Below, one piece after another: positions 22,669-59,927 of a DNA stretch of 64,000 nt (positions are counted from its first letter, which is position 1; every line of letters begins with the position of its first letter). The stretch spans positions 47,819 through 111,818 of the forward strand of contig JBKPDR010000004.1 in the NCBI GenBank assembly GCA_046727975.1. Reading direction: 5' to 3'. This stretch comes from Actinomycetota bacterium. GTDB taxonomy: Bacteria; Actinomycetota; Thermoleophilia; Gaiellales; Gaiellaceae. The translations under genes and the position numbers were made by a program. The notes beneath the pieces were generated by a model that was not told the origin of the DNA, did no database searches, and saw nothing but the letters and a program-made list of their open reading frames with translations.

Positions 22669-22705
22669 GGCCGCAAGGCTACCGCCGTCGCGGTCGCCCG
22701 AGCCT

Positions 22706-41948: not shown

Positions 41949-42539
41949 TCAATCGTCGAATGTTCGGGGTGGCGTCGAGTAGCCGCGGATACCGTCGACG
42001 AGGATCGCCGTGAAGCGATCGGCCAGCTCGTCCGTGTCGCGTCCCGGCGAGAGCCAGGTGTACGCCCAGTTCGCCGCCGACAGGACGAGCAGCGCCGCGG
42101 CGCTTGGATCGAGGTCCGAACGGAGCTCGCCGGCCTCGACTCCCTCGCGGAAGAGCGCACGGAAACGTTCCTCGTAGCGGCGGCGCTCCGAGAGGAGCTC
42201 CTCGCGGTAGTCGCCCTCGAGGTACCGCCATTCGCGGGTGAAGACAGTGGCGACGTCGAGCTGCTCGGCCACGACCCGGAGATGCCCGCGCAGCGCGAGC
42301 CGCACCCGCTCGATCGTCGCGGCATCCTCGGGCACCATGTCGAGCGCCGCGTGGAACGCGCGAGCACCCTCTCGCATCGTCTCGAAGAGGAGCTGCTGCT
42401 TCGAGCCCGTCAAGGAGTAGAGCGAGCCCTTCTGCACCCCGAGTGCCTCCGCGAGATCGCCCATCGACGTGCCGTGGAAGCCTCGTTCGGCGAAGAGCCG
42501 GGCGGCAGTGCGGGCCAGCTCTTCCCTCCTCGCGGACAT
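41949..42539 (-). CDS. TetR-family regulator (PaaR-like by context)
   Basis: ORF 41949..42539 (196 aa). N-terminal TetR HTH (LFAERGFHGTSMGDLAEALGVQKGSLYS). Divergent from paaA. Confidence 0.85.
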   Translation of the reverse strand: MSARREELARTAARLFAERGFHGTSMGDLAEALGVQKGSLYSLTGSKQQLLFETMREGARAFHAALDMVPEDAATIERVRLALRGHLRVVAEQLDVATVFTREWRYLEGDYREELLSERRRYEERFRALFREGVEAGELRSDLDPSAAALLVLSAANWAYTWLSPGRDTDELADRFTAILVDGIRGYSTPPRTFDD

Positions 42540-42548
42540 ATACTGATG

Positions 42549-42566
42549 CTAACGACCGTTCGGTAG
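42549..42566. promoter_or_regulatory. Imperfect palindrome CTAACGACCGTTCGGTAG (candidate TetR/PaaR operator)
   Basis: 14 of 18 positions are self-complementary, with an ACCG-N2-CGGT core. Lies in the 36-nt paaR-paaA divergent region, just upstream of the paaA RBS GGGAGG. Confidence 0.35.
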
Positions 42567-42575
42567 GGAGGCGAC

Positions 42576-43478
42576 ATGAACACGCGCACCCAGGAGTTCC
42601 TCGAGTACGTCCAGTCCGGCGGCCAGGTCGAGACGGGCGACTGGATGCCCGACGAGTACCGCTCGAAGCTCATCAAGTTCATCGAGATGCACGGGAACTC
42701 GGAGCTCATGGGCGTCCTCCCGGAGCGCGACTGGATCCTGCGGGCACCGACGTTGCAGCGAAAGCTCGCGCTGACGGCGAAGATCCAGGACGAGGTCGGC
42801 CATGCGCAGCTCATCTACCGCGTCGTCGAGGATCTCGGGAAGCCTCGAAACGCGTGTCTCGACGACCTCGTGTCCGGCAAGTCCAAGTTCCACAACGTCT
42901 TCCACTACCCGACACGAACGTGGGGCGACGTGGGCGTGATCGCCTGGCTCGTCGACGCAGCGGCGATCGTCTCCCAGAAAGCGCTCCTCAAGTGCTCCTA
43001 CGCGCCGTACGCGCGAATCATGAAGAAGATCTGCTGGGAGGAGTCGTTCCACATCCTTCACGGCCGCGACGTGATCCTCGCCATGGTCACGGGCACGCAG
43101 GAGCAGTTCGAGCTCGTGCAGGAGGCGCTCGATCGCTGGTGGGAGCCGCTCATGCACTTTCACGGCAACCAGATCCCGGCCGACGAGGACCCGATGTACG
43201 TTTGGCGGATCAAGAGCCAGGCAAACGAGGACGCCCGGCAGCAGTTCCTCGACGGCTACGTCCCCCAGATCCGCGAGCTCGGCCTCGAGATCCCGGACCC
43301 CGCGCTCCGCAAGGACGAGGAGAGCGAGACGTGGCTCTACACCGAGCCGGACTGGGACAAGCTGCGCGCGGTCGTCACCGGCCACGGTCCGGCGTCTGCG
43401 GAGCGCCTCGCGTTCCGCCGGCTCTCGCGGGAGGACGTCGCGTGGGTCGAGAGGGTGGTGCTCGCGGAGGCCGCATGA
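42576..43478 (+). CDS. paaA: 1,2-phenylacetyl-CoA epoxidase subunit A
   Basis: ORF 42576..43478 (300 aa). Di-iron ligand blocks QDEVGHAQ and EESFHILHG. Confidence 0.9.
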   Translation: MNTRTQEFLEYVQSGGQVETGDWMPDEYRSKLIKFIEMHGNSELMGVLPERDWILRAPTLQRKLALTAKIQDEVGHAQLIYRVVEDLGKPRNACLDDLVSGKSKFHNVFHYPTRTWGDVGVIAWLVDAAAIVSQKALLKCSYAPYARIMKKICWEESFHILHGRDVILAMVTGTQEQFELVQEALDRWWEPLMHFHGNQIPADEDPMYVWRIKSQANEDARQQFLDGYVPQIRELGLEIPDPALRKDEESETWLYTEPDWDKLRAVVTGHGPASAERLAFRRLSREDVAWVERVVLAEAA

Positions 43479-43612
43479 ACGCTCGCCTTCGGCTCGCGTT
43501 GATGGGGGAAACCATGTTTCCCCCATCTGCCCCCTTCTTCCTGAGAGCGCGGGGAACCTCCCGGCTCCCCGCACCCCTCGACGCGCATGTGCCAACTGGA
43601 GTTGGCCCATGA
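43475..43612 (+). repeat. Intercistronic repeat (family 2) forming a 45-codon mini-ORF coupled to paaA and paaB
   Basis: ATG at 43475 overlaps the paaA TGA (ATGA), and the stop TGA 43610..43612 overlaps the paaB ATG (ATGA). Contains hairpins gggggaaac-cat-gtttccccc and gcggggaacc-tccc-ggctccccgc. Homologous to 21899..22084. Confidence 0.75.
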
Positions 43613-43908
43613 GCATCTACGAGGTCTTCAGGCAAGAACGAAAGGGCCAGCCCTTCCAGCACGCGGGAACGGTTACGGCGCCCGATCTGCGCTTCGCCGA
43701 GATCTACGCCCGCGAGCAGTACGGGCGCCGCCAGGAGTCGGCCGCTCTGTGGCTCGTACCGCGCGAGTCGATGACCGAGATCGACGAGTTTCCGGACGAG
43801 TTCGACCTCAAATATCGAAGGGTCGACGGCTACTCGATCAAGACGCGGCTCCGCGAGGCACGCGAGAAGGCACTTTCGTCTTCGACGAAAGTGCCTAGGG
43901 AGACATGA
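43609..43908 (+). CDS. paaB: 1,2-phenylacetyl-CoA epoxidase subunit B
   Basis: ORF 43609..43908 (99 aa). YEVF.......H.G.V.A.D...A...A...Y pattern of PaaB. Confidence 0.88.
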   Translation: MSIYEVFRQERKGQPFQHAGTVTAPDLRFAEIYAREQYGRRQESAALWLVPRESMTEIDEFPDEFDLKYRRVDGYSIKTRLREAREKALSSSTKVPRET

Positions 43909-44576
43909 GCGAAAGGACCAACCTTCTCCTCGAGATCGCGGACGACGAGCTCGTCCTCGGTTGGCGGGACTCGGAGTGGACGGGGATCGCCCCCTTCCTC
44001 GAGGAGGACGTCGCTTTCTCCTCGATCGCGCAGAACGAGATCGGCCACGCGCGGGCCCTGTACGAGATCGCCGCGCGGGAGCTCGACACGACCGCGGACG
44101 GTCTCGCCTTCGACCGGCAGCCCGACGAGTACCGCTGCGCGCCGCTCGTGCAGCTCAGGCGACTCGAGTGGGCGCGAACGATCGCGCGCCACTGGCTCTA
44201 CGAGACGGCAGACGAGATCCGGCTCGCGGTGCTCACGGCGTCGGCCGATCCCGAGCTTGCGGGTATCGCGGCGAAGATCGACCGCGAGGAGGCGTACCAC
44301 CGCATGCACGCCGGGATGTGGATCGACCGCCTGCTCGCGACGGACGAGGGTCGCACGCGCCTGAACGAGTCCGTCGACGAGCTCTGGCCGTTCGCGCTCG
44401 GCGTCCTCGACGAGGAGCTGCAGCTGGAGCTTCGCCGCCGCGCAGAGGAGCGGCTGGGCCGAGCGTTGTCCGAAGCCGAGCCGGTCCCGCGCGGTCGGCA
44501 CGAGGCCGAGCTCCGCGATCTCTGGGAGGAGATGACGATGGTGCGCCGCTCGGCGCCGGTGGGTGCACAGTGGTAA
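43905..44576 (+). CDS. paaC: 1,2-phenylacetyl-CoA epoxidase subunit C
   Basis: ORF 43905..44576 (223 aa). LGDDELVLG-type N-terminus (IADDELVLGWRDSEW) and ferritin-like helices. ATGA overlap with paaB. Confidence 0.85.
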   Translation: MSERTNLLLEIADDELVLGWRDSEWTGIAPFLEEDVAFSSIAQNEIGHARALYEIAARELDTTADGLAFDRQPDEYRCAPLVQLRRLEWARTIARHWLYETADEIRLAVLTASADPELAGIAAKIDREEAYHRMHAGMWIDRLLATDEGRTRLNESVDELWPFALGVLDEELQLELRRRAEERLGRALSEAEPVPRGRHEAELRDLWEEMTMVRRSAPVGAQW

Positions 44577-44606
44577 GGCCATTTCTCGCTGCGCGAGAAA
44601 TGGCCT
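44576..44606 (+). other. Perfect 14-bp stem hairpin between paaC and paaD
   Basis: aggccatttctcgc-tgc-gcgagaaatggcct, starting at the last base of the paaC TAA. The paaD ATG is 15 nt downstream. Confidence 0.6.
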
Positions 44607-44620
44607 AGAAGGCTTCAGCG

Positions 44621-45139
44621 ATGACGAGTTCCGACTCTCCAACCACACGTCGTCCACCAACGGTGGACGACGTGTGGCGGTCGCTGGCCGAGATCCCGGA
44701 TCCCGAGATCCCGGCGATCTCACTGGTCGACCTCGGCGTGATCAAGAGCGTCCACGTCGAAGATCGCCGCGTCCGGATCGAGCTCACGCCGACGTTCATG
44801 GGGTGCCCGGCTCTCGACCGAATGCGCGTGGAAATGCGGGAGGCGGTCGAGCAGCTCGGCGGCGAGCCGCGGATCGACGTCGTCCTCGACGACTCCTGGT
44901 CGACGGACCGCATCAGCGCCGAAGGCCGCGAGAAGCTACGTCGCGCCGGCTTTGCGCCGCCGATGCCGCGCAAGCTGAGCGCACCGACGCTCGTCGAGCT
45001 GCAACGTGGCACCTTCCGCTGCCCGTACTGCGGATCGACCGACACGCGCCTCGAGAACATCTTCGGGCCGACCCCGTGCCGCTCGATCCGCTACTGCAAT
45101 GCGTGCCGGCAGCCGTTCGAGCAGTTCAAGACGCTTTAA
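44621..45139 (+). CDS. paaD: Phenylacetate-CoA oxygenase subunit PaaD (SUF-like / zinc-ribbon C-terminus)
   Basis: ORF 44621..45139 (172 aa). DPEIP.ISLVDLG block and C-terminal CPYCGS...CNAC. Confidence 0.85.
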   Translation: MTSSDSPTTRRPPTVDDVWRSLAEIPDPEIPAISLVDLGVIKSVHVEDRRVRIELTPTFMGCPALDRMRVEMREAVEQLGGEPRIDVVLDDSWSTDRISAEGREKLRRAGFAPPMPRKLSAPTLVELQRGTFRCPYCGSTDTRLENIFGPTPCRSIRYCNACRQPFEQFKTL

Positions 45140-45149
45140 GCCGAGCGGA

Positions 45150-45530
45150 TCAGAGCGGGGCGTAGAGATCGACCGGGACGCCGTCCGGGTCCAGGAGCTG
45201 CGCGTACCGCTGTCTCCAGAACGCGTCCCACGGTTCCTTCTCGCCGTGGAAACCCGCCGATGTGACACGCGCATAGACCTCGTCGACCTCGACGGAGCTC
45301 TCGCACTCGAAGGCGAGCCCGAGTTGGTTTCCGGTCTCCCTCGTCCATTCCGGGCGGAAGCTGCGCACGGTGTCCTCCGTGTCGAGCATGAAGCGGACGC
45401 CGTTCGGGAGGAACGTGTCGACGTGCCCCTCGTCCGGCGTATCGGGCACGTCGAGCCCGAGGAGGCGATAGAACCGGATCGAGCGCTCCATATCGGAGGC
45501 GACGATCCCGACGGCATTGAGCTGCGGCAT
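45150..45530 (-). CDS. Glyoxalase/VOC-family protein
   Basis: ATG at 45530 (MPQLNAVGIVASDMERSIRFY...) within ORF 45150..45776. Typical VOC beta-alpha-beta-beta-beta N-terminus. Confidence 0.8.
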   Translation of the reverse strand: MPQLNAVGIVASDMERSIRFYRLLGLDVPDTPDEGHVDTFLPNGVRFMLDTEDTVRSFRPEWTRETGNQLGLAFECESSVEVDEVYARVTSAGFHGEKEPWDAFWRQRYAQLLDPDGVPVDLYAPL

Positions 45531-45584
45531 CGTGGCGACACTAGCCGAAGCGTCTCTCTCGGCGCCCGCCGCTATGTTGCCTCG

Positions 45585-45803
45585 GTGACGGTCGAGATCC
45601 ACTACTGCCCGACCTGAAGCGGCTACGACACGCGGGCCGCGAGTCTCGCGGCCGAGATCACCTCGAAGCTCGGTCTCGACGCGAACCCGATACCGGGGTC
45701 GAACGGGCAGTTCGACGTCGTCTCCGACGGACGGCTCCTCTTCTCGAAGCAGGCCGAGGGGCGCTTCCCGGAGCATGACGAAATCGTGTTCGCCCTCGCC
45801 TAG
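45585..45803 (+). CDS. SelW/Rdx-family selenoprotein candidate (72 aa, in-frame TGA = Sec at codon 11)
   Basis: GTG 45585, then TVEIHYCPT-TGA(45615..45617)-SGYDTRAASLAAEITSKLGLDANPIPGSNGQFDVVSDGRLLFSKQAEGRFPEHDEIVFALA, TAG at 45801..45803. The CxxU falls at the family redox motif, and the PG..G.F.V..DG.L.FSK...GRFPE block downstream of the TGA is family-typical. The ORF track stops at the TGA. Confidence 0.68.
45635..45653 (+). promoter_or_regulatory. Candidate bacterial SECIS hairpin
   Basis: ggccgcg-agucu-cgcggcc: 7-bp GC stem (8 bp with the A-U closing pair). The apical loop contains GU and starts 24 nt after the UGA. Confidence 0.5.
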
Positions 45804-45922: not shown

Positions 45923-47002
45923 ATGACCGAGACGCGCGAGGCCGCTCTCGCCTCCCCGGTGAACACGGCGTCAGCGGGAAACCCCGTCATCCGGGCTCGC
46001 GGCGTGTGGAAGGTCTTCGGTCCCCATCCGGAACGATTGGTGGGCTCGCCGGACGCGCTGCTCCCGCGCCGTGAGCTGAGGGAAAAGACCGGGTGCGTCG
46101 TCGCCGTTCGCGACGTCTCGCTCGAGGTCTTCTCGGGAGAGGTCTTCGTGGTCATGGGCCTCTCGGGCTCCGGCAAGTCGACCCTCGTGCGGACGCTCAT
46201 CCGACTGATCGAGCCGACAGCAGGCGAGATCGAGATCGCCGGGCGCGACGTGATGAAGGCGGACCGTGCCGAGCTCCGGGCTCTGCGCCGCCATTCCGTC
46301 TCGATGGTGTTTCAGCACTTCGGGCTGCTCGCGCACCGGCGCGTGATCGACAACGTCGCCTTTGGACTCGAGGTCCGGGGCGTGGGGAAGCACGAGCGGC
46401 ATGCTCGGGCGCACGACGTGCTGAAGCTCGTCGGCCTGGAAGACGTCGCCGACCAGTTCCCCGACCAGCTCTCCGGGGGGATGCAGCAACGGGTCGGCGT
46501 CGCCCGCGCGTTCGCCGTCGATCCGGAGGTAATGCTCTACGACGAGCCCTTCAGCGCGCTCGATCCGCTCATCCGCCGAGACATGCAGGACGAGGTGATG
46601 CGGCTCCAGCGCGAGATCCGCAAGACCACGCTCTTCATCACCCACGACCTGCCCGAGGCGCTGCGCCTTGGCGCGCGGATCGCGATCATGCGCGACGGCG
46701 CGATCGTCCAGCTCGGAACGCCGGAGGAGCTGGTTGGCTCACCCGCCGACGAGTACGTCGAGAACTTCACCCGGGACATTCCACGCAGCCACGTGCTGAC
46801 CCTGCGCTGGATCATGCGCGAGCCAGGCGCGGGGGAGGCTACGGACGGTCCTCGGCTCGACGTCAAGACGACCGTGCGGCAAGCGGTCCCGGTGCTCGCT
46901 TCGAGCGAGAAGCCCGTCTGCTGTGTCGAGGACGGGAACGTCGTCGGCGTGGTCGACCGCGAGGCTGTGCTCGAAGCCATCGCGCAGGAACCGGACGACT
47001 GA
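45923..47002 (+). CDS. proV: Glycine betaine/choline ABC transporter ATPase with C-terminal CBS region
   Basis: ORF 45923..47002 (359 aa). Walker [10 protein letters not shown], signature LSGGMQQR, Walker [11 protein letters not shown]. Confidence 0.9.
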
Positions 47003-47004
47003 TC

Positions 47005-49011
47005 GTGGCAACTGTCGTTGCCGAGACGGTCAGGACGACGCCGGTCGTCGTCCATCGCCCCTGGTGGCGCGGGAAGCTCGTCCAGGTCGGAGCGATCGTC
47101 GCGCTCATGTACGTCACCTACCGCGTGTGGGCGCTCGACTACCCGTGGCCGAACGATCTCGTCTGGAACTCGCTCTCGCTGCATCTCGACGACTTCCAGA
47201 CCTGGCTCCTCACCGAGCGGGGCAAGGAGGACACGAGCCTCGTCTTCACCGTGTTCGAGGGCTTCAGCAACTCGATCGACCACCTCGTCGACTGGTTCGA
47301 CCGGCTTCTGCTCTGGATGACCTGGGCGGGGACGACGGTCGCAGGCACGTTGCTCGTGCTGCGCTTCGGCGGGTTGCGCGCTGCGCTGATCACGCTGTTT
47401 GCGTTCGCGACGTTTGCGCTCACGGGGCTGTGGGAGCAGAGCATGCAGACCCTCGCCCTGATGCTGGTGGCGGTCGCGCTCTCACTCGTCGTCGGGATGC
47501 CGCTGGGGATCCTCGCCGGCCGGTCACGACGCTTCAAGAGGACGATCACGCCCGTGCTCGATGCGATGCAGATCGTCCCGGCGTTCGCTTATCTGATGCC
47601 TGTCGTCATCCTCTTCTCGATCGGACCGGCCGCGGCCGTCGTCTCGACGATGATCTACGCGATCCCGCCGGCCATCCGCATCACGGCTCTCGGTATCCAG
47701 AGCGTGCCGGTCAACACCGTCGAAGCGGCGACCTCGATGGGCGCCACCCGCACGCAGCTGCTCGGCAAGGTCCAGCTCCCGCTCGCCCGGAAGATGATCC
47801 TCCTGGGCGTGAACCAGACGATCCTCTTCGCGCTCTCGATGGTCGTGATCGCGGGCTTGATCGGCGGGGGCGGGCTGGGAGCGGTCGTGACGAACGGGCT
47901 CTACTCGAACCCGGCGCTCGCGATCCTTGCCGGGCTCGTGATCGTGGTCACGGCGATGGCGGTCGACCGCGCCACGGAGGCGATCGCAGAGCGGACCGAC
48001 CCCGCGCACGCGCACGTCGACGAGGCGCGGAAGCGGAGGCTGCGTCTTCTGACCGTGGGTACGGCCCTGGGCATCGCGGCCGGGGTGGGCATCTCGAAGG
48101 CGCTCGGGGCGGCACCGGTGTATCCGGACACGTTCGGCGGCGAAGAGGGACGGAGCGCGACGCTCGACGAATGGCTCCTCGCAAAGATCCAGGTCGTCCT
48201 GGACTACGTGCAGGACCCGACCACGTTCGTCTTCGCGATCACCGAGCGCATCGGAGTCTTCATCCTCCAGCAACTGCTGCTGCCCCTCCAGGAGTTCCTC
48301 GTGGAGGCGCCGTGGTTCACGACCGTCGCCGGGCTCACGGCGATCGCGTTCGTCATCAGCGGCCTCCGGCCCGCGCTCACTACGCTCGCGATGCTCGGCC
48401 TGATCGGCTTCACCGGCGTCTGGGCGCTCGCCATGGACACGCTCTCGCAGGTGCTCGTCGCAGCCGCGATCGCGGTCGTCATCGGCGTCGCGCTAGGCAT
48501 TCTGGCTGCGGAAAGCGACCGCTTCTCGAAAGCGATGCGCCCGGTCAACGACATCCTGCAGACGCTCCCGCAGCTCGTCTACATCATCCCGTTCATCTAC
48601 CTGATGCCCGTCTCGATCGTGCCGGGGATCGTCGCCGGTGTGCTCTACGCGTTCCCCGTCACCCTGCGGCTCGTCGAGCGGGGCGTGCGCGATGTGGCGC
48701 CTGCCTCGGTCGAGGCCGCAAGCGCATACGGGGCCTCGAGGCGGCAGGTGCTGACGAAGGTGAAGCTCCCACTTGCGGGTGATGCCGTCATGCTGGGCCT
48801 CAACCAGGCGATCATCATGGTGCTCGCCGTCGTCGTGATCGGCGGGCTCGTCGGGTCGGGAGGTCTCGGCTACGAAGTGGCGCAGGGTCTCGTCCGAGGC
48901 CAGTTCGGACAGGGCGTGATCGCCTCCCTCGCGATTCTCGCACTGGGCATCGCTCTCGATCGTGTGACGCAAGGCTCGAGGCAAGGAAGGAGGGCATGGA
49001 ATGAGTCATAG
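47005..49011 (+). CDS. proW: Tandem-fused (duplicated) ProW/OpuAB-type ABC permease
   Basis: GTG at 47005, 2 nt after the proV stop, within ORF 46093..49011. Two complete permease modules, each with an EAA-like loop (VEAATSMGATRTQLL.KVQLPLA and VEAASAYGASRRQVLTKVKLPLA). Confidence 0.85.
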   Translation: MATVVAETVRTTPVVVHRPWWRGKLVQVGAIVALMYVTYRVWALDYPWPNDLVWNSLSLHLDDFQTWLLTERGKEDTSLVFTVFEGFSNSIDHLVDWFDRLLLWMTWAGTTVAGTLLVLRFGGLRAALITLFAFATFALTGLWEQSMQTLALMLVAVALSLVVGMPLGILAGRSRRFKRTITPVLDAMQIVPAFAYLMPVVILFSIGPAAAVVSTMIYAIPPAIRITALGIQSVPVNTVEAATSMGATRTQLLGKVQLPLARKMILLGVNQTILFALSMVVIAGLIGGGGLGAVVTNGLYSNPALAILAGLVIVVTAMAVDRATEAIAERTDPAHAHVDEARKRRLRLLTVGTALGIAAGVGISKALGAAPVYPDTFGGEEGRSATLDEWLLAKIQVVLDYVQDPTTFVFAITERIGVFILQQLLLPLQEFLVEAPWFTTVAGLTAIAFVISGLRPALTTLAMLGLIGFTGVWALAMDTLSQVLVAAAIAVVIGVALGILAAESDRFSKAMRPVNDILQTLPQLVYIIPFIYLMPVSIVPGIVAGVLYAFPVTLRLVERGVRDVAPASVEAASAYGASRRQVLTKVKLPLAGDAVMLGLNQAIIMVLAVVVIGGLVGSGGLGYEVAQGLVRGQFGQGVIASLAILALGIALDRVTQGSRQGRRAWNES

Positions 49012-49033
49012 CTCCGTGGGGAAGGAGGGTCGA

Positions 49034-50011
49034 ATGTCGGATCGTCTTGGCCGTCGCGGCGTCGTCGGCCTGATCGGTATTGCGCTCGTCGCGGCAGCGG
49101 CGCTCTCCGTGTCGGGGAGCGCGTTCGGCGGAAGTGCGCAGAGCTGCGGCACGGTCGTCATCAACGAGCAGTCGTGGGCGGGCTCGACGGCGAACACCTA
49201 CGTCGCGAAGTACGTGCTCGAGAAGCGGCTCGGCTGCAAGATCAAGATCACGAACGTCACGGAGGGCCCGCCGTACTTCCAGGCGATGCGAGACGGCAAG
49301 GTGGACGTCGCGCTCGAGGACTGGGACAACACGCTGACGGCGGCAGCGAAGCCCTACATAAAGGACGGGTCGGTCCGTGTTATCGGCTCGAACGGGATCA
49401 CCGGCGTCATCGGCTGGTACATCCCACGCTATCTCCTGAAGCAGTACCCGCAGTTCAAGACCTGGAGAGGCCTGAAGGGGAAAGAGGACGTGTTCAAGTC
49501 TCCGGAGTCGGGCTCGCAGGGGATGTTCCTCGGGGGCGATCCCTCCTACGTGCAGAAGGATCGCATGCTGATCCGTGGCCTCGGCCTCAACCTGAAGCAC
49601 GTGGTCGCAGGGGCCGAGCCGGCGCAGGTTGCGCGTTGGAGTCAGCTGTACAAGCAGAAGAAGCCCGTGCTCTTCTACTGGTACGACCCGCAGTACCTGA
49701 ACGCGCAGTACGACCTGTACCGGGTGAAGCTGCCTCCGCGCTTCAAGGGCTGCCAGGACGACGAGAAGCAGGGCGGAGACCCGAAAAAGTACGCGTGCGA
49801 GTACCCCTCCTACGGTCTCGACAAGCTCATCTCGAAGAAGTTCGCGACGAGCGGCTCGCCGGCCGTCGCGTTCGTCAAGAAGTGGAAGTGGACCTCGGCG
49901 GACCAGAACTTCGTCGCCAACCTCATCGCCGGCAAGAAGCTGAAGCCGGAGAAGGCGGCGGCGCAGTGGGTGAAGGCGAACAAGGCGAAAGTCAACGCAT
50001 GGCTCAAGTGA
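49034..50011 (+). CDS. proX: Glycine betaine/choline ABC transporter substrate-binding protein
   Basis: ORF 49001..50011. I prefer the ATG at 49034, preceded by GGAAGGAGGG. Signal peptide. WAGS..N and GWYIP blocks of the OpuAC family. Confidence 0.85.
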   Translation: MSDRLGRRGVVGLIGIALVAAAALSVSGSAFGGSAQSCGTVVINEQSWAGSTANTYVAKYVLEKRLGCKIKITNVTEGPPYFQAMRDGKVDVALEDWDNTLTAAAKPYIKDGSVRVIGSNGITGVIGWYIPRYLLKQYPQFKTWRGLKGKEDVFKSPESGSQGMFLGGDPSYVQKDRMLIRGLGLNLKHVVAGAEPAQVARWSQLYKQKKPVLFYWYDPQYLNAQYDLYRVKLPPRFKGCQDDEKQGGDPKKYACEYPSYGLDKLISKKFATSGSPAVAFVKKWKWTSADQNFVANLIAGKKLKPEKAAAQWVKANKAKVNAWLK

Positions 50012-50021
50012 GCTGACGTCT

Positions 50022-50051
50022 GCGGCGGGGGCGCCCCCGCGTCCCCGCCGT
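50022..50051. terminator. GC-rich palindrome between convergent proX and aldehyde dehydrogenase genes
   Basis: Perfect 16-nt palindrome gcgggggcgcccccgc (50025..50040). An alternative pairing is cggcgggg / ccccgccg. Confidence 0.5.
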
Positions 50052-50057
50052 TGGCAT

Positions 50058-51515
50058 CTACCCCAGGTTCACAACTACGGTCTTCAGCTCGGTGAAAGAC
50101 TCCATCGCGTGTCGCCCGCCGACGCGGCCGACGCCGGACCCCGATCCCGAGCGGCCTCCGAAGGGGAGATGGCTCTCCCAGTAGTTCGTCGACTCGTTGA
50201 TGTTGACCCAGCCGGCGCGGGCCGCCTCGGCGAAGCGCAGGCCGCGCCCGAGATCGCGCGTCCAGACGGCCGCGAGCAGCCCGTACGGAGAGCTGTTCAC
50301 GATCCGTAGCGCATCGTCCTCCGACTGGATGGTCGAGATCGGGAGCACCGGCCCGAACGTCTCCTCACGGGCCACCTCCATCTCGTCGGTGACGCTGTCG
50401 AGCACGGTCGCCTGCCAGTAGAGATCGGTCGGGAAACCGTTTGCCCGCGAGCCGCCGAGGACGATCTCGGCGCCACGATCCACGGCTTCGCCGACGTGGC
50501 GGTCGATCTTCTCCGCGGTCGGCGCGTTGTTGAGCGGCCCCATCGTGGTCTCCTCGAGGAGGGGGTCACCGAGACGGATCTCGCGCGCGATCGCCGCCTG
50601 CAGCTTGTCCACGTACTCGTCGTGCACGGCGTCGTGAACGAGGAAGCGCTCGCCTGCGGTGCAGCTCTGGCCCGCGCACAGGAAAGCGGCGACGAGGCTC
50701 CCCTCGACGGCCGCGTCCAGGTCGGCATCGTCGAGAATCACCATCGGCCCGTTGCCGCCGAGCTCGAGCACGAGCGTCTTGCCCGCCGCACGAGCCGCGA
50801 CCGCGTTCCCCGTGGCCGTCGAGCCGATGAACCCGACAGCGTGCGTGCCCGTGCTGCCGGCGAGTTCGTCCCCTACGACGCGACCCGGGCCGGTGACCAT
50901 CGAAAAGACGCCCTCCGGCAGCTCGGCGTCGACGATGCACTCCGCCAGCTTCACGGCACACACCGAGGTCGAGCTTGCGGGCGCCCAGACGACGGCGTTG
51001 CCCGCGGCGAGGGCGGGTGCCAGGAGCTCCGCGGGCATCGTGTACGGCCAGTTCCACGGCGTGATCACGGCGGCGACGCCGCGCGGCACGCGATAGGCGA
51101 GGACACGCTTGTCCGCGCTGACCGAGGGAGGCATCGACCCTTCCAGTCGCTTGACGTCCGCGGCAGCCATTGCCCAGTACTCGATGAGCTCGTCGACCTC
51201 GCCGTACGCCTCCGCGTGGAGCGGCTTGCCCTGGTCGAGCGCGAGCGTGTAAGCCAGGTCGTCGCGACGCTCGGCGATGAGCTCCGCGACGCGCTCCATG
51301 GCGTGCGCGCGCTCGAACGCAGATCGGGCCGCCCAGTCGGCGGAGGCCGTGTTGGCCGCCGCAATCGCGCGCTGCGCGTCCTCGCGGGTTCCTTCCGGGA
51401 CCGTCCCGATGATCTCGCCCGTCGCGGGGCTCGTCGCCTCGATGCGGCTGCCCGACTCGCTCTCCGTCCAGGCGCCGCCGACCACCATCCCGTAGTCGCG
51501 CACCGCGGTGCTCAT
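50058..51515 (-). CDS. NAD(P)-dependent aldehyde dehydrogenase (betaine-aldehyde dehydrogenase candidate by context)
   Basis: ATG at 51515 (MSTAVRDYGMVVGG...) within ORF 50058..52418. ELGGNGP and FLCAGQSCTAG catalytic blocks. ATGA overlap with the upstream ADH. Confidence 0.88.
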   Translation of the reverse strand: MSTAVRDYGMVVGGAWTESESGSRIEATSPATGEIIGTVPEGTREDAQRAIAAANTASADWAARSAFERAHAMERVAELIAERRDDLAYTLALDQGKPLHAEAYGEVDELIEYWAMAAADVKRLEGSMPPSVSADKRVLAYRVPRGVAAVITPWNWPYTMPAELLAPALAAGNAVVWAPASSTSVCAVKLAECIVDAELPEGVFSMVTGPGRVVGDELAGSTGTHAVGFIGSTATGNAVAARAAGKTLVLELGGNGPMVILDDADLDAAVEGSLVAAFLCAGQSCTAGERFLVHDAVHDEYVDKLQAAIAREIRLGDPLLEETTMGPLNNAPTAEKIDRHVGEAVDRGAEIVLGGSRANGFPTDLYWQATVLDSVTDEMEVAREETFGPVLPISTIQSEDDALRIVNSSPYGLLAAVWTRDLGRGLRFAEAARAGWVNINESTNYWESHLPFGGRSGSGSGVGRVGGRHAMESFTELKTVVVNLG

Positions 51516-52684
51516 CGCTTCCCCCGCGAGAACGCGTTGCGGTAGATCTCCTCGTAGCCGTCGACGTCGACCTCGCGGGGATTGCCGATCGTCTGCGGGT
51601 CCTCGAAGGCGATGCGGGCGAGCATCGGGATCTCGTCCGTCGAGAATCCGAGGTCCTCCATCGTCGGAATGTCCACGTCCTCGGTCAGCCGGTAGACCTC
51701 CTCGACACCCGCAGCCGCGGCCTCGAGCGTGTCCAGCCCGGACGTGTCGACGCCCAGAGCCTGGGCGATCCGGGCGTAGCGTTCCGGGGCGGCCGGGACG
51801 TTGTGCTCGCAGACCGGCCCGAGAACGCGTGCCGTGAGAGCTCCGTGGGGACAGTCGTGTACTCCGCCCGCCGACTGACTCATCGCATGCGCTGCGCCGG
51901 CACTCTCGGTGCCGTAGGCCATGCCGCCGAACGTCGCCGAGTGCGCCATCATCGTGCGTGCCTCGACATTCCGGCCGTCCTCGTAGGCGAGTCGTAGCCA
52001 CTTCCCGGCGAGCTCGATGGCCGTGAGCGCGACGGCATCGTTGAACGGCTGGTGGTAGTCGCACGTGTAGCACTCGATCCCGTGGGAGAGCGCGTCCATT
52101 CCCGTGGCCGCAGTGACGGCCGGCGGCAGGCCGAGCGTCAGCTCTGGATCGACGAGCGCGACGTGCGGGCCGATGAGCGGCGTTCCCCCGACGTTGAACT
52201 TGATCCTGCGGTCGGTGTCCGTGATGACCGCCCAGAGGGTCACCTCGCTCCCGGTCCCGGCGGTCGTCGGAACCGCGACCAGAGGGGGGATACGCGACGT
52301 GATGGGTGTCTGGCCGTACTCGTACCTGCGGATCGAGCCCCCGTGAGCGATCTCCACACCGATCGACTTCGCGGTGTCGATCGAGCTCCCCCCGCCTAGA
52401 GCGACGAGCCCATCGCATCCCTCGCCGCGATAAACAGCGGACGCCCGCCCGACGAGCTCTATGTCGGGATTCGCATAGACGTCGTCGAAGAGGACGGCGC
52501 CCTCGAGGTGCTCGAGCGCACGGTCCGCGAGCCCCGCCCCGGCGACACCTTTGTCCGTGACGAGAAGGGGCCGCGTGACACCGAGGTCGCGGACGACGTC
52601 TCCGAGCTGCGAGATCGCCCCTGGGCCGTGGACGATCCTGGTCGGCAGCTCCACCGTACGCACGGTCTCGACCTCGACGCTCAC
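51512..52684 (-). CDS. Type III iron-containing alcohol dehydrogenase (choline dehydrogenase GbsB-like by context)
   Basis: ORF 51512..52684 (390 aa). GGGSSIDTAK and metal-binding histidines (ALSHGIE, AHAMSQ..GG..D.PHG). Confidence 0.88.
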   Translation of the reverse strand: MSVEVETVRTVELPTRIVHGPGAISQLGDVVRDLGVTRPLLVTDKGVAGAGLADRALEHLEGAVLFDDVYANPDIELVGRASAVYRGEGCDGLVALGGGSSIDTAKSIGVEIAHGGSIRRYEYGQTPITSRIPPLVAVPTTAGTGSEVTLWAVITDTDRRIKFNVGGTPLIGPHVALVDPELTLGLPPAVTAATGMDALSHGIECYTCDYHQPFNDAVALTAIELAGKWLRLAYEDGRNVEARTMMAHSATFGGMAYGTESAGAAHAMSQSAGGVHDCPHGALTARVLGPVCEHNVPAAPERYARIAQALGVDTSGLDTLEAAAAGVEEVYRLTEDVDIPTMEDLGFSTDEIPMLARIAFEDPQTIGNPREVDVDGYEEIYRNAFSRGKR

Positions 52685-52748
52685 CCTGTCCTCACGCTCA
52701 GAATCACGGCCGGAAAGATCCTATTCACGCGACCTCACCTGAGCAACG

Positions 52749-53510
52749 TTGCAGATCAGGCACAGGTCGTGCAAAATCCGCAACGCCTTGCAGTCAGCCG
52801 ACAGGGCACTCGCGATCCTTGCAGCGTTCAGCCCCGACCGCTCGTCGCTTCGGGTCTCCGAGCTCGCGCGCGAGCTCGGGCTGCACAAGAGCACCGTCTC
52901 GCGCCTGCTTGCGATCCTCCAGGCACGCGGGCTCGTACGACGGGACGGGAACAGCTTTGCCCCCGGGCCGGAGCTCGCACGCCTCGGCGCCCTCGCCGTG
53001 AGCAGCCTCCCTCTCGCGCAGGTCGCGCGGCAGCCGCTCGGACGGCTGGCCGAGGTCACGGGCGAGACGGTCAACCTCGCCGTCCGCCGAGGCGAGGAGG
53101 CGGTGAACGTGCTGCAGGTCCAGACAACCCACTTCGTCGGAATGACCGATTGGACCGGCCGCGGCGCCCCGCTGCACGCGACGGCCAACGGGAAAGTCCT
53201 GCTCGCGTTCGGCGACGGCCCTACACCGGCACGGCTACCCGCTCTGACCGACCGAACCATCGTGGACAGGTCCGCGCTCGAAGCCGAGCTCGCGGAGGTG
53301 CGGCGCAGAGGCTATGCGACCGCATCCGAGGAGCTCGAGATCGGCCTCGTCGCCGTCGCCGCACCCGTTCTCGACTCCTTGGGAGCGTGCGCGGGAGCCG
53401 TGTCCGTATCCGGGCCCGCATACCGGTTGGACCCCGAACGGACGGCCGAGGCGTGCCTGGCCACGGCCGCCGAGATTTCGAAGCTGCTCGGCTTCAAGGA
53501 AGCCGCGTGA
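52749..53510 (+). CDS. IclR-family transcriptional regulator
   Basis: ORF 52749..53510 (TTG start; alternative TTG at 52788 giving (M)QSADRALAIL). wHTH VSELARELGLHKSTVSRLL plus an IclR effector domain. Confidence 0.85.
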   Translation: MQIRHRSCKIRNALQSADRALAILAAFSPDRSSLRVSELARELGLHKSTVSRLLAILQARGLVRRDGNSFAPGPELARLGALAVSSLPLAQVARQPLGRLAEVTGETVNLAVRRGEEAVNVLQVQTTHFVGMTDWTGRGAPLHATANGKVLLAFGDGPTPARLPALTDRTIVDRSALEAELAEVRRRGYATASEELEIGLVAVAAPVLDSLGACAGAVSVSGPAYRLDPERTAEACLATAAEISKLLGFKEAA

Positions 53511-53653
53511 CAACGCCCAACCGTGCGCAAGACCGGAATCCGCTCGCGCGGATTCCGGTCGCGCGAAGATCCCTAAAGCGCGGCCGCTTCGCGGCCGCGG
53601 TGGCTGCGACTTTCACATCAAGTCTCCAACACACAACAGAGGAGGCGCCATGA
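53507..53653 (+). repeat. Intercistronic repeat (family 1) forming a 48-codon mini-ORF coupled to iclR and the demethylase gene
   Basis: GTG 53507 overlaps the iclR TGA (GTGA), and TGA 53651..53653 overlaps the downstream ATG (ATGA). Hairpins ccggaatccgc-tcgc-gcggattccgg (53533..53558) and cgcggccg-cttcg-cggccgcg (53579..53599). The element supplies the GGAGG RBS of the next gene. Homologous to 15285..15460. Confidence 0.75.
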
Positions 53654-54840
53654 GCATCGAGCAGCACCCCGAGATCCTCTTGTACACGCGGATTCGGAGG
53701 TCGCCCTACTTCCACGCCTCGCGCCGGCACGGCGTGAAGATGTACAGCGTCTACAACCGCACCTACCACGCCCGGCACTACGGCGACCCGTTCGCGGAGT
53801 ACTGGCAGCTCATCGAAGGCGTGACGCTCTGGGACGTCGGAGTCGAGCGACAGACCGAGATCACAGGGCCTGACGCCTTCGCCCTCGCGAACATGCTCGT
53901 ACCCCGCGACCTGTCGAAATGCGCGGTCGGACAGTGCAAGTACGTCTTCATAACAGCGCCCGACGGCGGAATCATCAACGACCCGGTGCTCCTGCGCCTC
54001 GCCGAGAACCACTTCTGGATCTCTGCGGCGGACAGCGACCTCCTCCTCTGGGCGCTCGGCGTCGCCTACAAGTCGGGGCTCGACGTCACCGTTCGTGAGC
54101 CCGACGTCGCCCCGGTGCAGATCCAGGGGCCCAAGTCCGCGGAGGTCATGGTCGAGCTCTTCGGAGAGAGCATCCTCGAGGTGCCCTACTACCACCTGGC
54201 CGAAACGAGCGTCGACGGGATGGACGTGATCGTCTCGCGAACGGGCTACACCGGCGAACTCGGGTACGAGATCTACTGCAAGGAGGCGAGCAAGAACGGC
54301 GTGCGCCTGTGGGACGCCGTGCTGGAGGCGGGCAAGCCGCACGACCTCGCGGTCATCGGCCCCTGTCACATCCGCCGCATCGAAGGTGGCATCCTCGCGT
54401 ACGGAGCGGACATGGAGCTCGACACGAACCCGTACGAGGTGGACATGGGGTACGAGTGGATGGTCGACCTCCAGCAGGAGTCCGACTTCGTCGGCAAGGA
54501 CGCGCTCGAGCGCATCAAGCAGGAGGGAATCTCGCGGAAGCTCGTCGGCGTGGAGATCGGCGGCGAGCAGCTCGGGTCGTACATCGACTCGTCGATGATC
54601 GATTTCTTCCCCGTCTACCGCGACGGCGACAAGGTCGGGGATGTCACGTCGGCGTGCTACTCACCTCGGCTCGAGAAGAACATCGGCTACGCGATGCTGC
54701 CGATCGAGCTGACCGAGCTCGGAACCGAGCTCGAGGTGGAGACCACGACCGAGCGCACGTCGGCGGTCGTCGTCCAGAAGCCCTTCGTCGACCCGAAGAA
54801 GGAGATCCCGAAGCAGACGCTGACGACCGGGGCATCTTGA
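53650..54840 (+). CDS. GcvT-family THF-dependent demethylase-like protein (DmdA-like subgroup)
   Basis: ATG at 53650 within ORF 53314..54840. The N-terminal block RRSPYF...G.K.YSVYN......Y.....EY..L...V.LWDV.VERQ.EI.GPDA resembles the DmdA/aminomethyltransferase subgroup. GYTGELGYEIY core. Confidence 0.78.
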   Translation: MSIEQHPEILLYTRIRRSPYFHASRRHGVKMYSVYNRTYHARHYGDPFAEYWQLIEGVTLWDVGVERQTEITGPDAFALANMLVPRDLSKCAVGQCKYVFITAPDGGIINDPVLLRLAENHFWISAADSDLLLWALGVAYKSGLDVTVREPDVAPVQIQGPKSAEVMVELFGESILEVPYYHLAETSVDGMDVIVSRTGYTGELGYEIYCKEASKNGVRLWDAVLEAGKPHDLAVIGPCHIRRIEGGILAYGADMELDTNPYEVDMGYEWMVDLQQESDFVGKDALERIKQEGISRKLVGVEIGGEQLGSYIDSSMIDFFPVYRDGDKVGDVTSACYSPRLEKNIGYAMLPIELTELGTELEVETTTERTSAVVVQKPFVDPKKEIPKQTLTTGAS

Positions 54841-54860
54841 GCGGGCTCCTCGACGCCCTC

Positions 54861-55658
54861 ATGCGCCCGCGCTACGAGGTGTATGCCGCGTCAGGGACCG
54901 CAGCGGCGGTTGCCCGGCACGTCCCGACGAGCATCAAGGTGACGGTCACGAGCTCCGAAGCGCGAGGGCTCGACGCCACCCTCGACCTGACCACGGAGCT
55001 CGCAGGCGTCGGCTATGAGGTCGTTCCGCACCTCGCCGCGCGGCTCGTGCTCGACCGGTCGCACCTGGCGAGGATCGTCCGGCGGCTCGACGACGCGGAC
55101 GTGCGCGAGGTATTCGTCATCGCGGGGGACGCGAGCGAGCCGCACGGCGACTACCCGGACGCGCTCTCGTTGCTCCTCGCCATGCGCGAGCTCGGTCACG
55201 GACTGACGCACATCGGGTTCGTCGGATACCCGGAGCCGCACCCGTTTCTCACCGACGACGTGCTGGCGCGGGCCCTCAGGGACAAGGCCGTGCACGCAAC
55301 GTACATCGTCACGCAGATCTGTTTCGAGCCGCAGCCGATCGACGAGTGGGTCGCGCGACTTCGGGAGGACGGAATCGCGTTGCCTGTCCACATCGGCGTT
55401 CCCGGGGTGGTCGACCACGACCGGCTTCGGCGCATCGTGCACCGACTCGGGCTCCGCGATTCCACCCCCCCTGCCCCCGAATCGGGTAGCTACACACCGG
55501 ACGTGCTCGTCGAGGGGCTGCGGTCACTCGACGATCCGGGCGCCGGGATCGGCGGCCTCCACGTCTACACGTTCAACGAGCTCGCGGAGACGGAGGCGTG
55601 GCGCCGCGCGAGGTTGGAGCTGGCCTCGCCGGCCGTGGCCCAGGAGACGCGCACGTGA
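54861..55658 (+). CDS. metF: Methylenetetrahydrofolate reductase-like protein
   Basis: Within ORF 54309..55658. ATG at 54861 (alternative TTG at 54837, overlapping the upstream TGA). MTHFR blocks VPHLAAR, VIAGD, GYPEPHP, TQICFE. Confidence 0.7.
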   Translation: MRPRYEVYAASGTAAAVARHVPTSIKVTVTSSEARGLDATLDLTTELAGVGYEVVPHLAARLVLDRSHLARIVRRLDDADVREVFVIAGDASEPHGDYPDALSLLLAMRELGHGLTHIGFVGYPEPHPFLTDDVLARALRDKAVHATYIVTQICFEPQPIDEWVARLREDGIALPVHIGVPGVVDHDRLRRIVHRLGLRDSTPPAPESGSYTPDVLVEGLRSLDDPGAGIGGLHVYTFNELAETEAWRRARLELASPAVAQETRT

Positions 55659-59903: not shown

Positions 59904-59927
59904 GGCACTTCCCGTCGGGAAGTGCCT
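59903..59927. terminator. Bidirectional hairpin bridging the etfA and kinase stop codons
   Basis: aggcacttccc-gtc-gggaagtgcct: 11-bp perfect stem, flanked by TAA (etfA) and CTA (kinase TAG). Confidence 0.6.

What the first reader, a model, noticed from the sequence alone, without database searches (positions are those of the whole stretch)
45585..45803. Unannotated SelW/Rdx-family selenoprotein gene: CxxU with in-frame TGA and a SECIS-like hairpin
Seen in the sequence: GTG-TVEIHYCPT is followed by TGA at 45615..45617. The same frame then stays open for 61 more codons to TAG at 45801. The downstream part (NPIPGSNGQFDVVSDGRLLFSKQAEGRFPEHDEI) matches the conserved core of Rdx/SelW-like proteins. 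The TGA falls exactly where the family has the second redox residue of CxxC/CxxU. A GC hairpin (ggccgcg-agucu-cgcggcc) has its apical loop 24 nt after the UGA, with G at loop position 2.

Established knowledge: bacterial SelW-like selenoproteins exist. Bacterial SECIS elements are hairpins a short distance downstream of the UGA, with a conserved G near the start of the apical loop.

Inference: the TGA is decoded as selenocysteine. The ORF track and most gene callers would miss or truncate this gene.
Basis: partly seen in the sequence, partly recalled or inferred. Interest (0 to 1): 0.65.

Follow-up and report, generated by a model that had tools for sequence, protein, structure and literature searches.

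The report
SelW-like selenoprotein gene with SECIS
This is a real but ordinary 72-codon gene for a small SelW/Rdx-type redox protein whose in-frame TGA is almost certainly read as selenocysteine; gene callers miss or truncate it, and the family is already well known in bacteria.

Summary
GTG 45585 opens a 72-codon frame. It reads VEIHYCPT, then TGA (45615-17), then 61 codons to TAG 45801-03.

- **Family.** The protein matches Pfam Rdx and TIGR02174 above their cut-offs. The TGA aligns with the second Cys of the CxxC motif in solved SelW-related proteins.
- **Conservation.** All 80 best-matching loci from species-representative genomes carry TGA at this codon. All are Gaiellaceae or other Thermoleophilia MAGs. 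None has Cys. Protein sequence is conserved on both sides of the TGA.
- **Hairpin.** GGCCGCG-AGUCU-CGCGGCC (45635-53) is kept in these homologues, with compensatory base changes and frozen synonymous codons.
- **TGA is a normal stop here.** It is the commonest stop codon in the window. No in-frame start codon follows the TGA until codon 68.
- **Second gene.** A peroxiredoxin-like gene with TGA at the catalytic Cys and a similar hairpin lies near the gene in 7 related genomes.
- **Not shown.** selA, selB, selC and selD are absent from the window and from 1.39 Mb of flanks. I could not search whole genomes.

Verdict: a new member of the known bacterial SelW-like selenoprotein family, probably on a leaderless mRNA. 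Interest is modest.

The parts
45573..45578 (+). -10-like promoter hexamer TATGTT, 6 nt upstream of the start codon (leaderless-mRNA signature)
   Evidence: A TANNNT hexamer ends 6-8 nt before the aligned start codon in 76 of 82 distinct homologues (one more at 9 nt). A Shine-Dalgarno-like motif is present in only 5 of 82. The function is inferred and no transcription start was mapped.
45585..45803 (+). SelW-like (Rdx family) selenoprotein CDS, 72 codons including UGA-Sec at codon 11 and ending in the TAG stop
   Evidence: GC by codon position is 0.63/0.45/0.90, like real genes of the window. The aligned start codon is GTG in 63 and ATG in 17 of 82 homologues.
45606..45608 (+). Cys8 codon (TGC), first residue of the C-P-T-U redox motif
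   Evidence: Cys is invariant in 83/83 distinct homologues. It aligns with the first Cys of CxxC in 2OJL, 2OKA and 2LJK.
45615..45617 (+). In-frame UGA, predicted selenocysteine codon 11
   Evidence: TGA in 83 of 86 loci examined, including all 80 species-representative genome loci, and never a Cys codon. It aligns with the second Cys of CxxC in solved Rdx proteins.
45635..45653 (+). SECIS-like hairpin: 7-bp stem (45635-41 with 45647-53) and loop AGUCU (45642-46; G45643, U45644)
   Evidence: 96.8% of cells are paired. 15 cells show changes on both sides, against 1.7 in shuffles (0/500 shuffles reach it). 3 of 7 pairs have compensatory changes, and slid registers pair in only 30-60% of cells. 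Codons inside are frozen: AGT 83/83, CTC 81/81, GCG 79/79. The loop is invariant apart from position 4 in 2 sequences.
45801..45803 (+). TAG stop codon of the full-length reading frame
   Evidence: Homologues end at the equivalent place with TAG (50), TGA (24) or TAA (9).

Best explanation
Window 45585-45803 (+) encodes a 72-residue SelW-like (Rdx-family) selenoprotein of a soil Gaiellaceae-type actinobacterium.

**Transcription (inferred).** The mRNA probably starts at or next to the GTG. It looks leaderless: a -10 box TATGTT sits 6 nt upstream and there is no Shine-Dalgarno.

**Recoding (inferred from comparison).** At codon 11 the UGA is not read as stop. The hairpin 45635-53 (7-bp GC stem, loop AGUCU, 24 nt after the UGA) would act as a bacterial SECIS. 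It would bind SelB-GTP-Sec-tRNASec and deliver selenocysteine in competition with RF2. Translation then runs to TAG 45801.

**Product.** The predicted fold is a small thioredoxin-like domain (beta1-alpha1-beta2-beta3-beta4-alpha2). Cys8-Pro-Thr-Sec11 sits between beta1 and alpha1, where it can form a reversible selenenylsulfide. The protein is therefore most likely a thiol-dependent redox protein. Its substrate is unknown, as it is for the whole bacterial family.

**What is shown.** Sequence, family and fold membership; clade-wide conservation of the TGA; hairpin covariation.

**What is inferred.** Actual Sec insertion, SelB binding, the leaderless start and the redox role.
For: - **Family.** Pfam Rdx E=1.5e-14 and TIGR02174 at 44.9 bits against a cut-off of 34.2.
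- **Position of the TGA.** It aligns with the second Cys of CxxC in 2OJL, 2OKA and MIEN1.
- **Fold.** The AF2 model of homologue P0001 has pLDDT 94.3. Its best PDB matches are bacterial SelW-related proteins (TM 0.81-0.87) and mouse SelW (0.70).
- **Conservation of the TGA.** 481 relatives were found in species-representative genomes. All 80 loci kept have TGA and none has Cys.
- **Selection on both sides.** Residues on both sides are conserved while their codons vary. For example, Pro9 is invariant yet uses all four codons.
- **Hairpin.** It shows covariation, and its synonymous sites are frozen at 0-0.8 bits. Four-fold sites of invariant residues elsewhere in the gene vary by 1.1-1.8 bits.
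- **Resemblance to a proven SECIS.** The loop shares G-U-C-U with the E. coli fdhF SECIS loop region, which lies 18 nt after its UGA.
- **TGA is an ordinary stop here.** It ends 24 of 42 coding-like ORFs of the window and 24 of 83 homologues of this same gene.
- **No independent translation of the 3' part.** In the window no in-frame ATG, GTG or TTG follows the TGA until codon 68 (45786).
- **Second selenoprotein candidate in the clade.** An AhpC/TSA peroxiredoxin-like gene has TGA at the peroxidatic Cys and a 7-bp hairpin with a 5-nt loop CGUGA, 21 nt after the UGA. It occurs in 7 of the related loci.
- **RNA-derived contigs.** Soil metatranscriptome contigs cover 45585-45656 of homologues with the TGA unchanged.
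Against: - No selA, selB or selD (tblastn with the E. coli proteins, E<=1e-3) and no tRNA-Sec were found in the window or in 1.39 Mb of flanks of the related loci. The Sec machinery of this genome is therefore unverified.
- Single-sequence folding is not better than shuffles (z = -0.54), and the MFE prefers another pairing.
- There is no Rfam match, even at E<=10.
- The hairpin overlaps the conserved protein motif RAASLAAE, so part of its nucleotide conservation is protein-driven.
- Three metagenome contigs carry TCA, AGA or GGA instead of TGA.
- Metatranscriptome contigs can contain DNA, and here they extend upstream of the start codon. They neither prove translation nor support the leaderless start.
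Confidence: 0.88

Rival explanations
1. The UGA is read through by a near-cognate tRNA (Trp, Cys or Arg), helped by the downstream hairpin. No selenocysteine and no SelB are involved.
For: The Sec machinery could not be found in the sequence available. Structured RNA downstream of a stop codon can raise read-through (general knowledge).
Against: - A Cys or Trp codon would do the same job at no cost, yet 80 of 80 species keep TGA and none has TGC or TGT.
- The stop sits exactly on the catalytic CxxC/U position.
- The hairpin has the bacterial SECIS layout, with an invariant G-U in a small apical loop.
- A second gene in the clade puts TGA on a peroxidatic Cys and has a like hairpin.
Confidence: 0.05
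2. The UGA is a true stop. Only a 10-residue peptide is made, and the hairpin plus the downstream frame are a regulatory leader or an untranslated remnant.
For: TGA is the commonest stop codon in this genome. The ORF listing and gene callers see no gene here.
Against: - The 61 downstream codons have the coding signature GC3 0.90 / GC2 0.45.
- They match Rdx on their own at E=7e-10.
- Residues stay conserved while synonymous sites vary across 83 sequences.
- There is no conserved internal start codon, and none at all in the window before codon 68.
- The Rdx fold needs beta1 and the CxxU, which lie before and at the stop.
Confidence: 0.03
3. This is a pseudogene of a Cys-type Rdx gene, or a sequencing error at the TGA.
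For: Single metagenome contigs carry TCA, AGA or GGA at this codon, so single-base variants do occur at the site.
Against: - TGA is present in all 80 independent species-level genome loci and in both other metagenome contigs read through this codon, L001 and L090.
- Soil RNA-derived contigs laid on the region show no variant at the TGA.
- No Cys-codon form exists among the relatives examined.
- Purifying selection acts on both sides.
- The three variants are each one base away from TGA. L003-L005 are single short contigs, L004 at about 1.5x coverage. They are over-represented among 'full-length' database proteins because only such variants give an uninterrupted ORF.
Confidence: 0.01
4. TGA is reassigned genome-wide (to Trp or Gly, as in code 4 or 25), so this is an ordinary sense codon.
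For: Six database homologues are written with W at this position.
Against: - For P0001 the DNA does not translate to the record under the standard code and shows TGA. The W therefore comes from the caller's code table.
- TGA ends 24 of 42 coding-like ORFs of the window, among them paaA, paaB, proV and proX.
- TGA also ends 24 of 83 homologues of this very gene.
Confidence: 0.01

Closest known systems
Bacterial SelW-like selenoproteins (Zhang, Gladyshev and co-workers: Sargasso Sea 2005, PMC1088965; bacterial genomes 2006, PMC1794560; GOS 2008, PMC2398784)
   Same: A small Rdx/SelW-fold protein with a CxxU motif near the N-terminus and a stem-loop with a G in a small apical loop shortly after the UGA. 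Cys-containing forms are rare or absent, as those papers report for this family.
   Different: The lineage is soil Gaiellaceae/Thermoleophilia MAGs. My two literature searches on this clade found nothing relevant. The gene carries a leaderless-type promoter signature, and the same AGUCU-loop hairpin is kept across the whole clade.
E. coli fdhF SECIS element
   Same: A hairpin directly downstream of the UGA. The small apical loop contains G-U followed by C-U: fdhF has GCA-GGUC-UGC, this gene has GCG-AGUCU-CGC.
   Different: The loop starts 24 nt after the UGA here, against 18 nt in fdhF. There is no bulged U in the 7-bp stem, and no conserved lower stem was found. Binding by a SelB is inferred, not shown.
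Cys-type bacterial Rdx proteins with solved structures (2OJL, 2OKA, 2FA8, 2OBK, 2P0G, 3DEX)
   Same: The same fold: TM 0.81-0.87 and rmsd 1.4-1.9 A for the model of a 76%-identical homologue. The same position of the redox motif.
   Different: Those proteins have CxxC and are about 100 residues long with extra termini. This one has CxxU, only 72 residues, and 23-30% identity to them.
Mammalian selenoprotein W (2NPB) and MIEN1 (2LJK)
   Same: Rdx family, CxxU/CxxC at beta1-alpha1, thioredoxin-like fold (TM 0.70 and 0.75).
   Different: The eukaryotic SECIS lies in the 3' UTR and is of a different type. Sequence identity is 17-28%.

Membership tests
Rdx / SelT-SelW-SelH family (Pfam PF10262, NCBIfam TIGR02174) | Profile match above the curated cut-off | tested here: met
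   PF10262 scores 54.3 bits against a cut-off of 22.6. TIGR02174 scores 44.9 against 34.2 (U written as C). The narrower equivalog NF041051 (Campylobacter type) scores 65.5, below its cut-off of 88, so it is not that subtype.
Rdx / SelT-SelW-SelH family (Pfam PF10262, NCBIfam TIGR02174) | CxxC or CxxU redox motif after the first beta strand | tested here: met
   C8-P-T-(TGA)11 aligns with the CxxC of 2OJL, 2OKA and 2LJK. It lies between strand 2-7 and helix 14-29 of the model.
Rdx / SelT-SelW-SelH family (Pfam PF10262, NCBIfam TIGR02174) | Thioredoxin-like beta-alpha-beta-beta-beta-alpha fold | tested here: met
   The AF2 model of homologue P0001 (76% identical, W at the Sec place) has pLDDT 94.3. 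The top 22 PDB matches are all Rdx-family proteins (bacterial SelW-related proteins and MIEN1), followed by mouse SelW and then thioredoxins.
Bacterial selenoprotein gene (UGA-Sec with SECIS) | In-frame UGA at a position occupied by Cys in homologues, with protein conservation on both sides | tested here: met
   TGA is in 83 of 86 loci. V3, E4, I5, Y7, C8 and P9 upstream and G13, Y14, D15, R17 and later residues downstream are 94-100% conserved.
Bacterial selenoprotein gene (UGA-Sec with SECIS) | Stem-loop a short distance after the UGA with a small apical loop carrying a conserved G. The criteria as I recall them from bSECISearch are 16-37 nt to the loop and a G in the first two loop positions; PMC1088965 confirms the small loop with a guanosine. 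| tested here: met
   A 7-bp stem, the 5-nt loop AGUCU, and 24 nt from the UGA. Covariation and the slide controls support it, as do the frozen synonymous sites. bSECISearch itself was not available.
Bacterial selenoprotein gene (UGA-Sec with SECIS) | selA, selB, selD and tRNA-Sec (selC) present in the same genome | tested here: inconclusive
   None is in the 64-kb window or in 1.39 Mb of flanks of related loci. Indirect support comes from a second TGA-at-catalytic-Cys gene in 7 related genomes.
Bacterial selenoprotein gene (UGA-Sec with SECIS) | Selenium actually incorporated (75Se labelling or mass spectrometry) | not testable with these tools
   This needs an experiment.
Rfam SECIS families | Covariance-model match | tested here: not met
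   No match at gathering scores over the window, nor at E<=10 over 45560-45720. Either no Rfam family covers this bacterial element or the models do not reach it.

The most novel reading that the evidence does not exclude
The gene is an obligate-Sec SelW that is fixed across the Gaiellaceae, with no Cys form in 80 species. It is expressed from a leaderless mRNA in which the UGA is only 30 nt, and the SECIS only 50-69 nt, from the 5' end. If so, it would be a natural, very compact Sec-insertion cassette working with 70S-type leaderless initiation in a high-GC actinobacterium. It would also mark this abundant, almost uncultured soil clade as a selenium user with at least two selenoproteins.
Probability: 0.55. 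Interest if true: 0.5.

Novelty: new member of a known kind. Interest (0 to 1): 0.4.

Why it matters
- **Annotation.** The gene is invisible to standard callers. They truncate it, or translate it with the wrong code. The same error affects hundreds of Gaiellaceae/Thermoleophilia genomes, since 481 relatives were found among species-representative genomes alone.
- **Biology.** It flags a very abundant soil actinobacterial clade as a likely selenium user. It also offers a conserved, minimal UGA-plus-hairpin unit that could be tested as a Sec-insertion element in high-GC Gram-positives.
- **Limits.** It does not open a new kind of system. SelW-like proteins have been among the most common known bacterial selenoproteins since 2005, and their biochemical role stays unknown.

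Tried and rejected
- **Sec machinery in the sequence at hand.** ARAGORN on the window and on 85 loci found no tRNA-Sec. tblastn with E. coli SelA, SelB and SelD found no hit at E<=1e-3.
- **Sec machinery by contig length.** I searched the protein database with E. coli SelA, hoping to match hits to the large Gaiellaceae contigs by their length. Only the best 120 of 8000 hits are listed and all are enterobacterial, so this was useless.
- **Source genome.** PaaA is not on record. PaaB is only on a 2.1-kb JGI contig. Sequencing-run look-ups gave soil metagenomes holding 5-9% of the words. There is no match in PLSDB plasmids.
- **Rfam.** Nothing at gathering or permissive thresholds.
- **Single-sequence folding.** Not significant, so I did not use it as evidence.
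- **Structure of the window protein.** I used homologue P0001 instead.
- **Other selenoprotein genes.** A Sec/Cys-homology scan of all TGA-interrupted coding-like frames in window plus loci gave only the SelW-like and the Prx-like genes. The other candidates were true gene ends.
- **Rejected readings.** Code-4/25 reassignment, pseudogene, and a leader peptide with an attenuator (see the rival explanations).

Full report
**1. The observation**

The window reads GTG(45585) ACG GTC GAG ATC CAC TAC TGC CCG ACC TGA(45615-17). The same frame then runs for 61 sense codons to TAG 45801-03, which gives VTVEIHYCPT*SGYDTRAASLAAEITSKLGLDANPIPGSNGQFDVVSDGRLLFSKQAEGRFPEHDEIVFALA*. The hairpin is as described:
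- 5' arm GGCCGCG at 45635-41;
- loop AGUCU at 45642-46;
- 3' arm CGCGGCC at 45647-53;
- 24 nt between the UGA and the loop.

The frame has the codon-position GC signature of real genes here (0.63/0.45/0.90). The long antisense ORF 45150-45776 is real only up to the ATG at 45530, where it encodes a glyoxalase/VOC protein. Its 5' extension over the finding has GC3 of only 0.63.

**2. Family**

With Cys written for the TGA, the 72-mer matches Pfam Rdx (E=1.5e-14) and TIGR02174 above their cut-offs. The part after the TGA matches on its own (E=7e-10), and the ten residues before it add 15 bits.

Against the PDB, the best sequence matches are bacterial SelW-related proteins (2OJL, 2OKA, 2FA8, 2OBK, 2P0G) and human MIEN1. 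Their CxxC aligns with C8...TGA11.

The window protein could not be submitted for folding, so I modelled P0001, which is 76% identical and is written with W at the TGA.
- The model has pLDDT 94.3.
- Its order of elements is beta(2-7), alpha(14-29), beta, beta, beta, alpha.
- It superposes on the bacterial SelW-related structures at TM 0.81-0.87 and on mouse SelW at 0.70, with thioredoxins next.

**3. Is the TGA a defect?**

The protein database returned 41 homologues.
- 31 begin after the TGA at various false starts.
- 10 are full length, with W (6), R (2), S or G at the position, and never C.
- For P0001 the DNA has TGA, so the W comes from the caller's code table.
- P0002, P0004 and P0005 really carry TCA, AGA and GGA, on single short contigs (L004 at about 1.5x coverage). 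Each is one base away from TGA. Such variants are enriched among 'full-length' proteins simply because only they give an uninterrupted ORF.

A scan of species-representative genomes found 481 relatives. The 80 loci kept are all from Gaiellaceae, Thermoleophilia or unclassified Actinomycetota MAGs. Two MAGs contribute two loci each, so they represent about 78 genomes. Every one of these loci has TGA at this codon.

TGA is not reassigned. It ends 24 of 42 coding-like ORFs of the window, including paaA, paaB, proV and proX. It also ends 24 of 83 homologues of this same gene.

In the window no in-frame ATG, GTG or TTG follows the TGA before codon 68 (45786). The conserved 3' part therefore cannot be translated on its own.

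**4. The hairpin**

I aligned 80 distinct sequences without gaps.
- The seven pairs are standard in 96.8% of cells.
- Three pairs show compensatory changes. G35:C53 becomes C:G in 4 sequences and A:U in 7. C38:G50 becomes U:A in 2. G39:C49 becomes A:U in 2, and there the change even alters two alanines to Thr and Val.
- 15 cells have changes on both sides, against 1.7 in shuffles (0 of 500 shuffles reach this).
- All slid registers pair in only 30-60% of cells.

The codons inside the hairpin are frozen: Ser20 is AGT in 83/83 (a GC3-poor codon in a genome whose genes have GC3 near 0.9), Leu21 is CTC in 81/81, and Ala19 is GCG in 79/79. Four-fold sites of invariant residues elsewhere in the gene vary by 1.1-1.8 bits.

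The loop is invariant except at position 4 in two sequences. It shares G-U-C-U with the loop region of the E. coli fdhF SECIS, which starts 18 nt after its UGA rather than 24.

A more distant homologue sits in a Gram-negative-type context with TonB-dependent receptor and ExbB/ExbD genes (locus L092). It keeps C-x-x-TGA and the same AGUCU loop on a stem with one G-U pair, one codon closer to the UGA.

Caveats: single-sequence folding is not significant, Rfam has no match, and the hairpin overlaps the conserved motif RAASLAAE.

**5. Other signs of Sec use in the clade**

My own scan for coding-like frames interrupted by TGA found a second gene, both with a hairpin filter and with a Sec/Cys homology filter. 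It lies in the 10-kb flanks of the SelW-like gene in 7 loci. It is a roughly 152-residue AhpC/TSA peroxiredoxin-like protein (Pfam E=1.1e-25) with TGA at the peroxidatic Cys (FYLFDWSST-TGA-TSE). A 7-bp hairpin with the loop CGUGA starts 21 nt after its UGA, again with G-U at loop positions 2-3. Peroxiredoxin and Prx-like proteins are known bacterial selenoprotein families (PMC1794560).

Soil metatranscriptome contigs cover the start-to-hairpin segment of many homologues with the TGA unchanged. Such contigs may include DNA.

**6. What could not be shown**

selA, selB, selD and tRNA-Sec are not in the window or in the 1.39 Mb of flanks. Whole genomes could not be searched with the tools left.

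**7. Expression and context**

76 of 82 distinct homologues have a TANNNT hexamer ending 6-8 nt before the start codon (one more at 9 nt). In the window this is TATGTT at 45573-78. Only 5 have a Shine-Dalgarno-like motif. This is the usual signature of leaderless actinobacterial mRNAs. It is an inference, and no 5' end was mapped.

The common gene order, seen in about 40 of 85 related loci, is:
- a TetR-family regulator gene on the minus strand;
- paaABCD on the plus strand;
- the SelW-like gene on the plus strand;
- a proline-racemase-like gene on the minus strand, convergent with it.

The window differs in two ways. A VOC gene sits between paaD and the SelW-like gene. About 17 kb of extra genes separate the SelW-like gene from the proline-racemase-like gene at 62616-63437:
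- glycine-betaine uptake (proV, proW, opuAC);
- aldehyde and alcohol dehydrogenases;
- an IclR regulator;
- a GcvT-like protein and a dimethylglycine-dehydrogenase-like protein;
- an ETF subunit;
- a protein kinase;
- a predicted zinc-ribbon membrane protein (read by eye only).

The context is thus positional synteny. It gives no clear functional link.

**8. Comparison with what is known, and verdict**

SelW-like proteins with CxxU were the most abundant selenoprotein family in the Sargasso Sea data. They are known in several bacterial phyla and have few or no Cys forms (PMC1088965, PMC1794560). My two literature searches on Gaiella or Thermoleophilia with selenoprotein terms turned up nothing relevant.

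This is a new member of a known kind. I put the probability that it is a genuine Sec-encoding SelW-like gene at about 0.88. Interest is modest (0.4). The interest lies mainly in annotation, in marking an abundant soil clade as a likely selenium user, and in the compact, apparently leaderless UGA-plus-SECIS arrangement.

Noticed in passing
L036 710-1309 (+); L041 16188-16709 (-); L042 7697-8164 (-); L046 18788-19309 (-); L059 15638-16153 (-); L075 3988-4458 (+); L077 2191-2658 (+): A second candidate selenoprotein gene lies in the 10-kb flanks of the SelW-like gene in 7 Gaiellaceae loci. It is an AhpC/TSA peroxiredoxin-like protein with TGA at the peroxidatic Cys (FYLFDWSST-TGA-TSE). The hairpin GCUCCUG-CGUGA-CAGGAGC starts 21 nt after the UGA. 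The gene is not present in the window.
   Followed up: partly
window 45573-45587 and the aligned upstream regions of L001-L085: A TANNNT -10-like hexamer ends 6-8 nt before the start codon in 76 of 82 homologues (one more at 9 nt), and a Shine-Dalgarno is almost never present. This suggests a leaderless mRNA with the UGA 30 nt from the 5' end.
   Followed up: partly
window 41949-45139 and 62616-63437; loci L007-L084: Conserved synteny in about 40 of 85 loci: a TetR gene (minus strand), paaABCD (plus), the SelW-like gene (plus), then a convergent proline-racemase-like gene (minus). The window has a VOC gene (45150-45530, minus strand) and a block of about 17 kb inserted within this arrangement.
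   Followed up: yes
window 45923-61257: A glycine-betaine uptake and demethylation-type cluster: proV, a fused double proW, opuAC, aldehyde dehydrogenase, Fe-alcohol dehydrogenase, IclR, a GcvT-like protein, a DAO+GcvT (dimethylglycine/sarcosine-dehydrogenase-like) protein, an ETF alpha-like protein and a Ser/Thr kinase.
   Followed up: partly
P0001-P0014; L003 621-623, L004 251-253, L005 900-902: 'Full-length' database homologues carry W, S, R or G at the Sec position and never Cys. At least one W is TGA translated with another code table. The S, one R and the G are real single-base variants of TGA on single short contigs (L004 at about 1.5x coverage). P0014 (R) was not checked.
   Followed up: partly
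L092 9951-10168 (+): A more distant SelW-like gene sits in a Gram-negative-type context (TonB-dependent receptor, ExbB/ExbD). It has a normal GGAGG ribosome-binding site and C-Q-A-TGA. It keeps the same AGUCU loop on a stem with one G-U pair, starting 21 nt after the UGA instead of 24.
   Followed up: partly
window 45150-45776 (-) and 45006-45617 (+): Long spurious ORFs overlap the finding on both strands, as is typical of 68% GC DNA. The minus-strand ORF is real only from the ATG at 45530 (a VOC/glyoxalase protein). The plus-strand ORF is the open upstream extension of the SelW frame.
   Followed up: yes
window 17338-18444 (-) and 19199-20380 (-): Two radical-SAM CofH/MqnC-type genes sit next to what look by eye like UbiE/MenG-like and UbiX-like genes (about 21207-22812). 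This suggests a futalosine-route menaquinone cluster.
   Followed up: partly
window 45585-45656 in runs X11, X12, X14, X18: Many distinct soil metatranscriptome contigs match only the start-codon-to-hairpin segment, which is the most conserved DNA of the gene. All have the TGA unchanged. The only common variant is G>A at 45632, a synonymous third position.
   Followed up: partly
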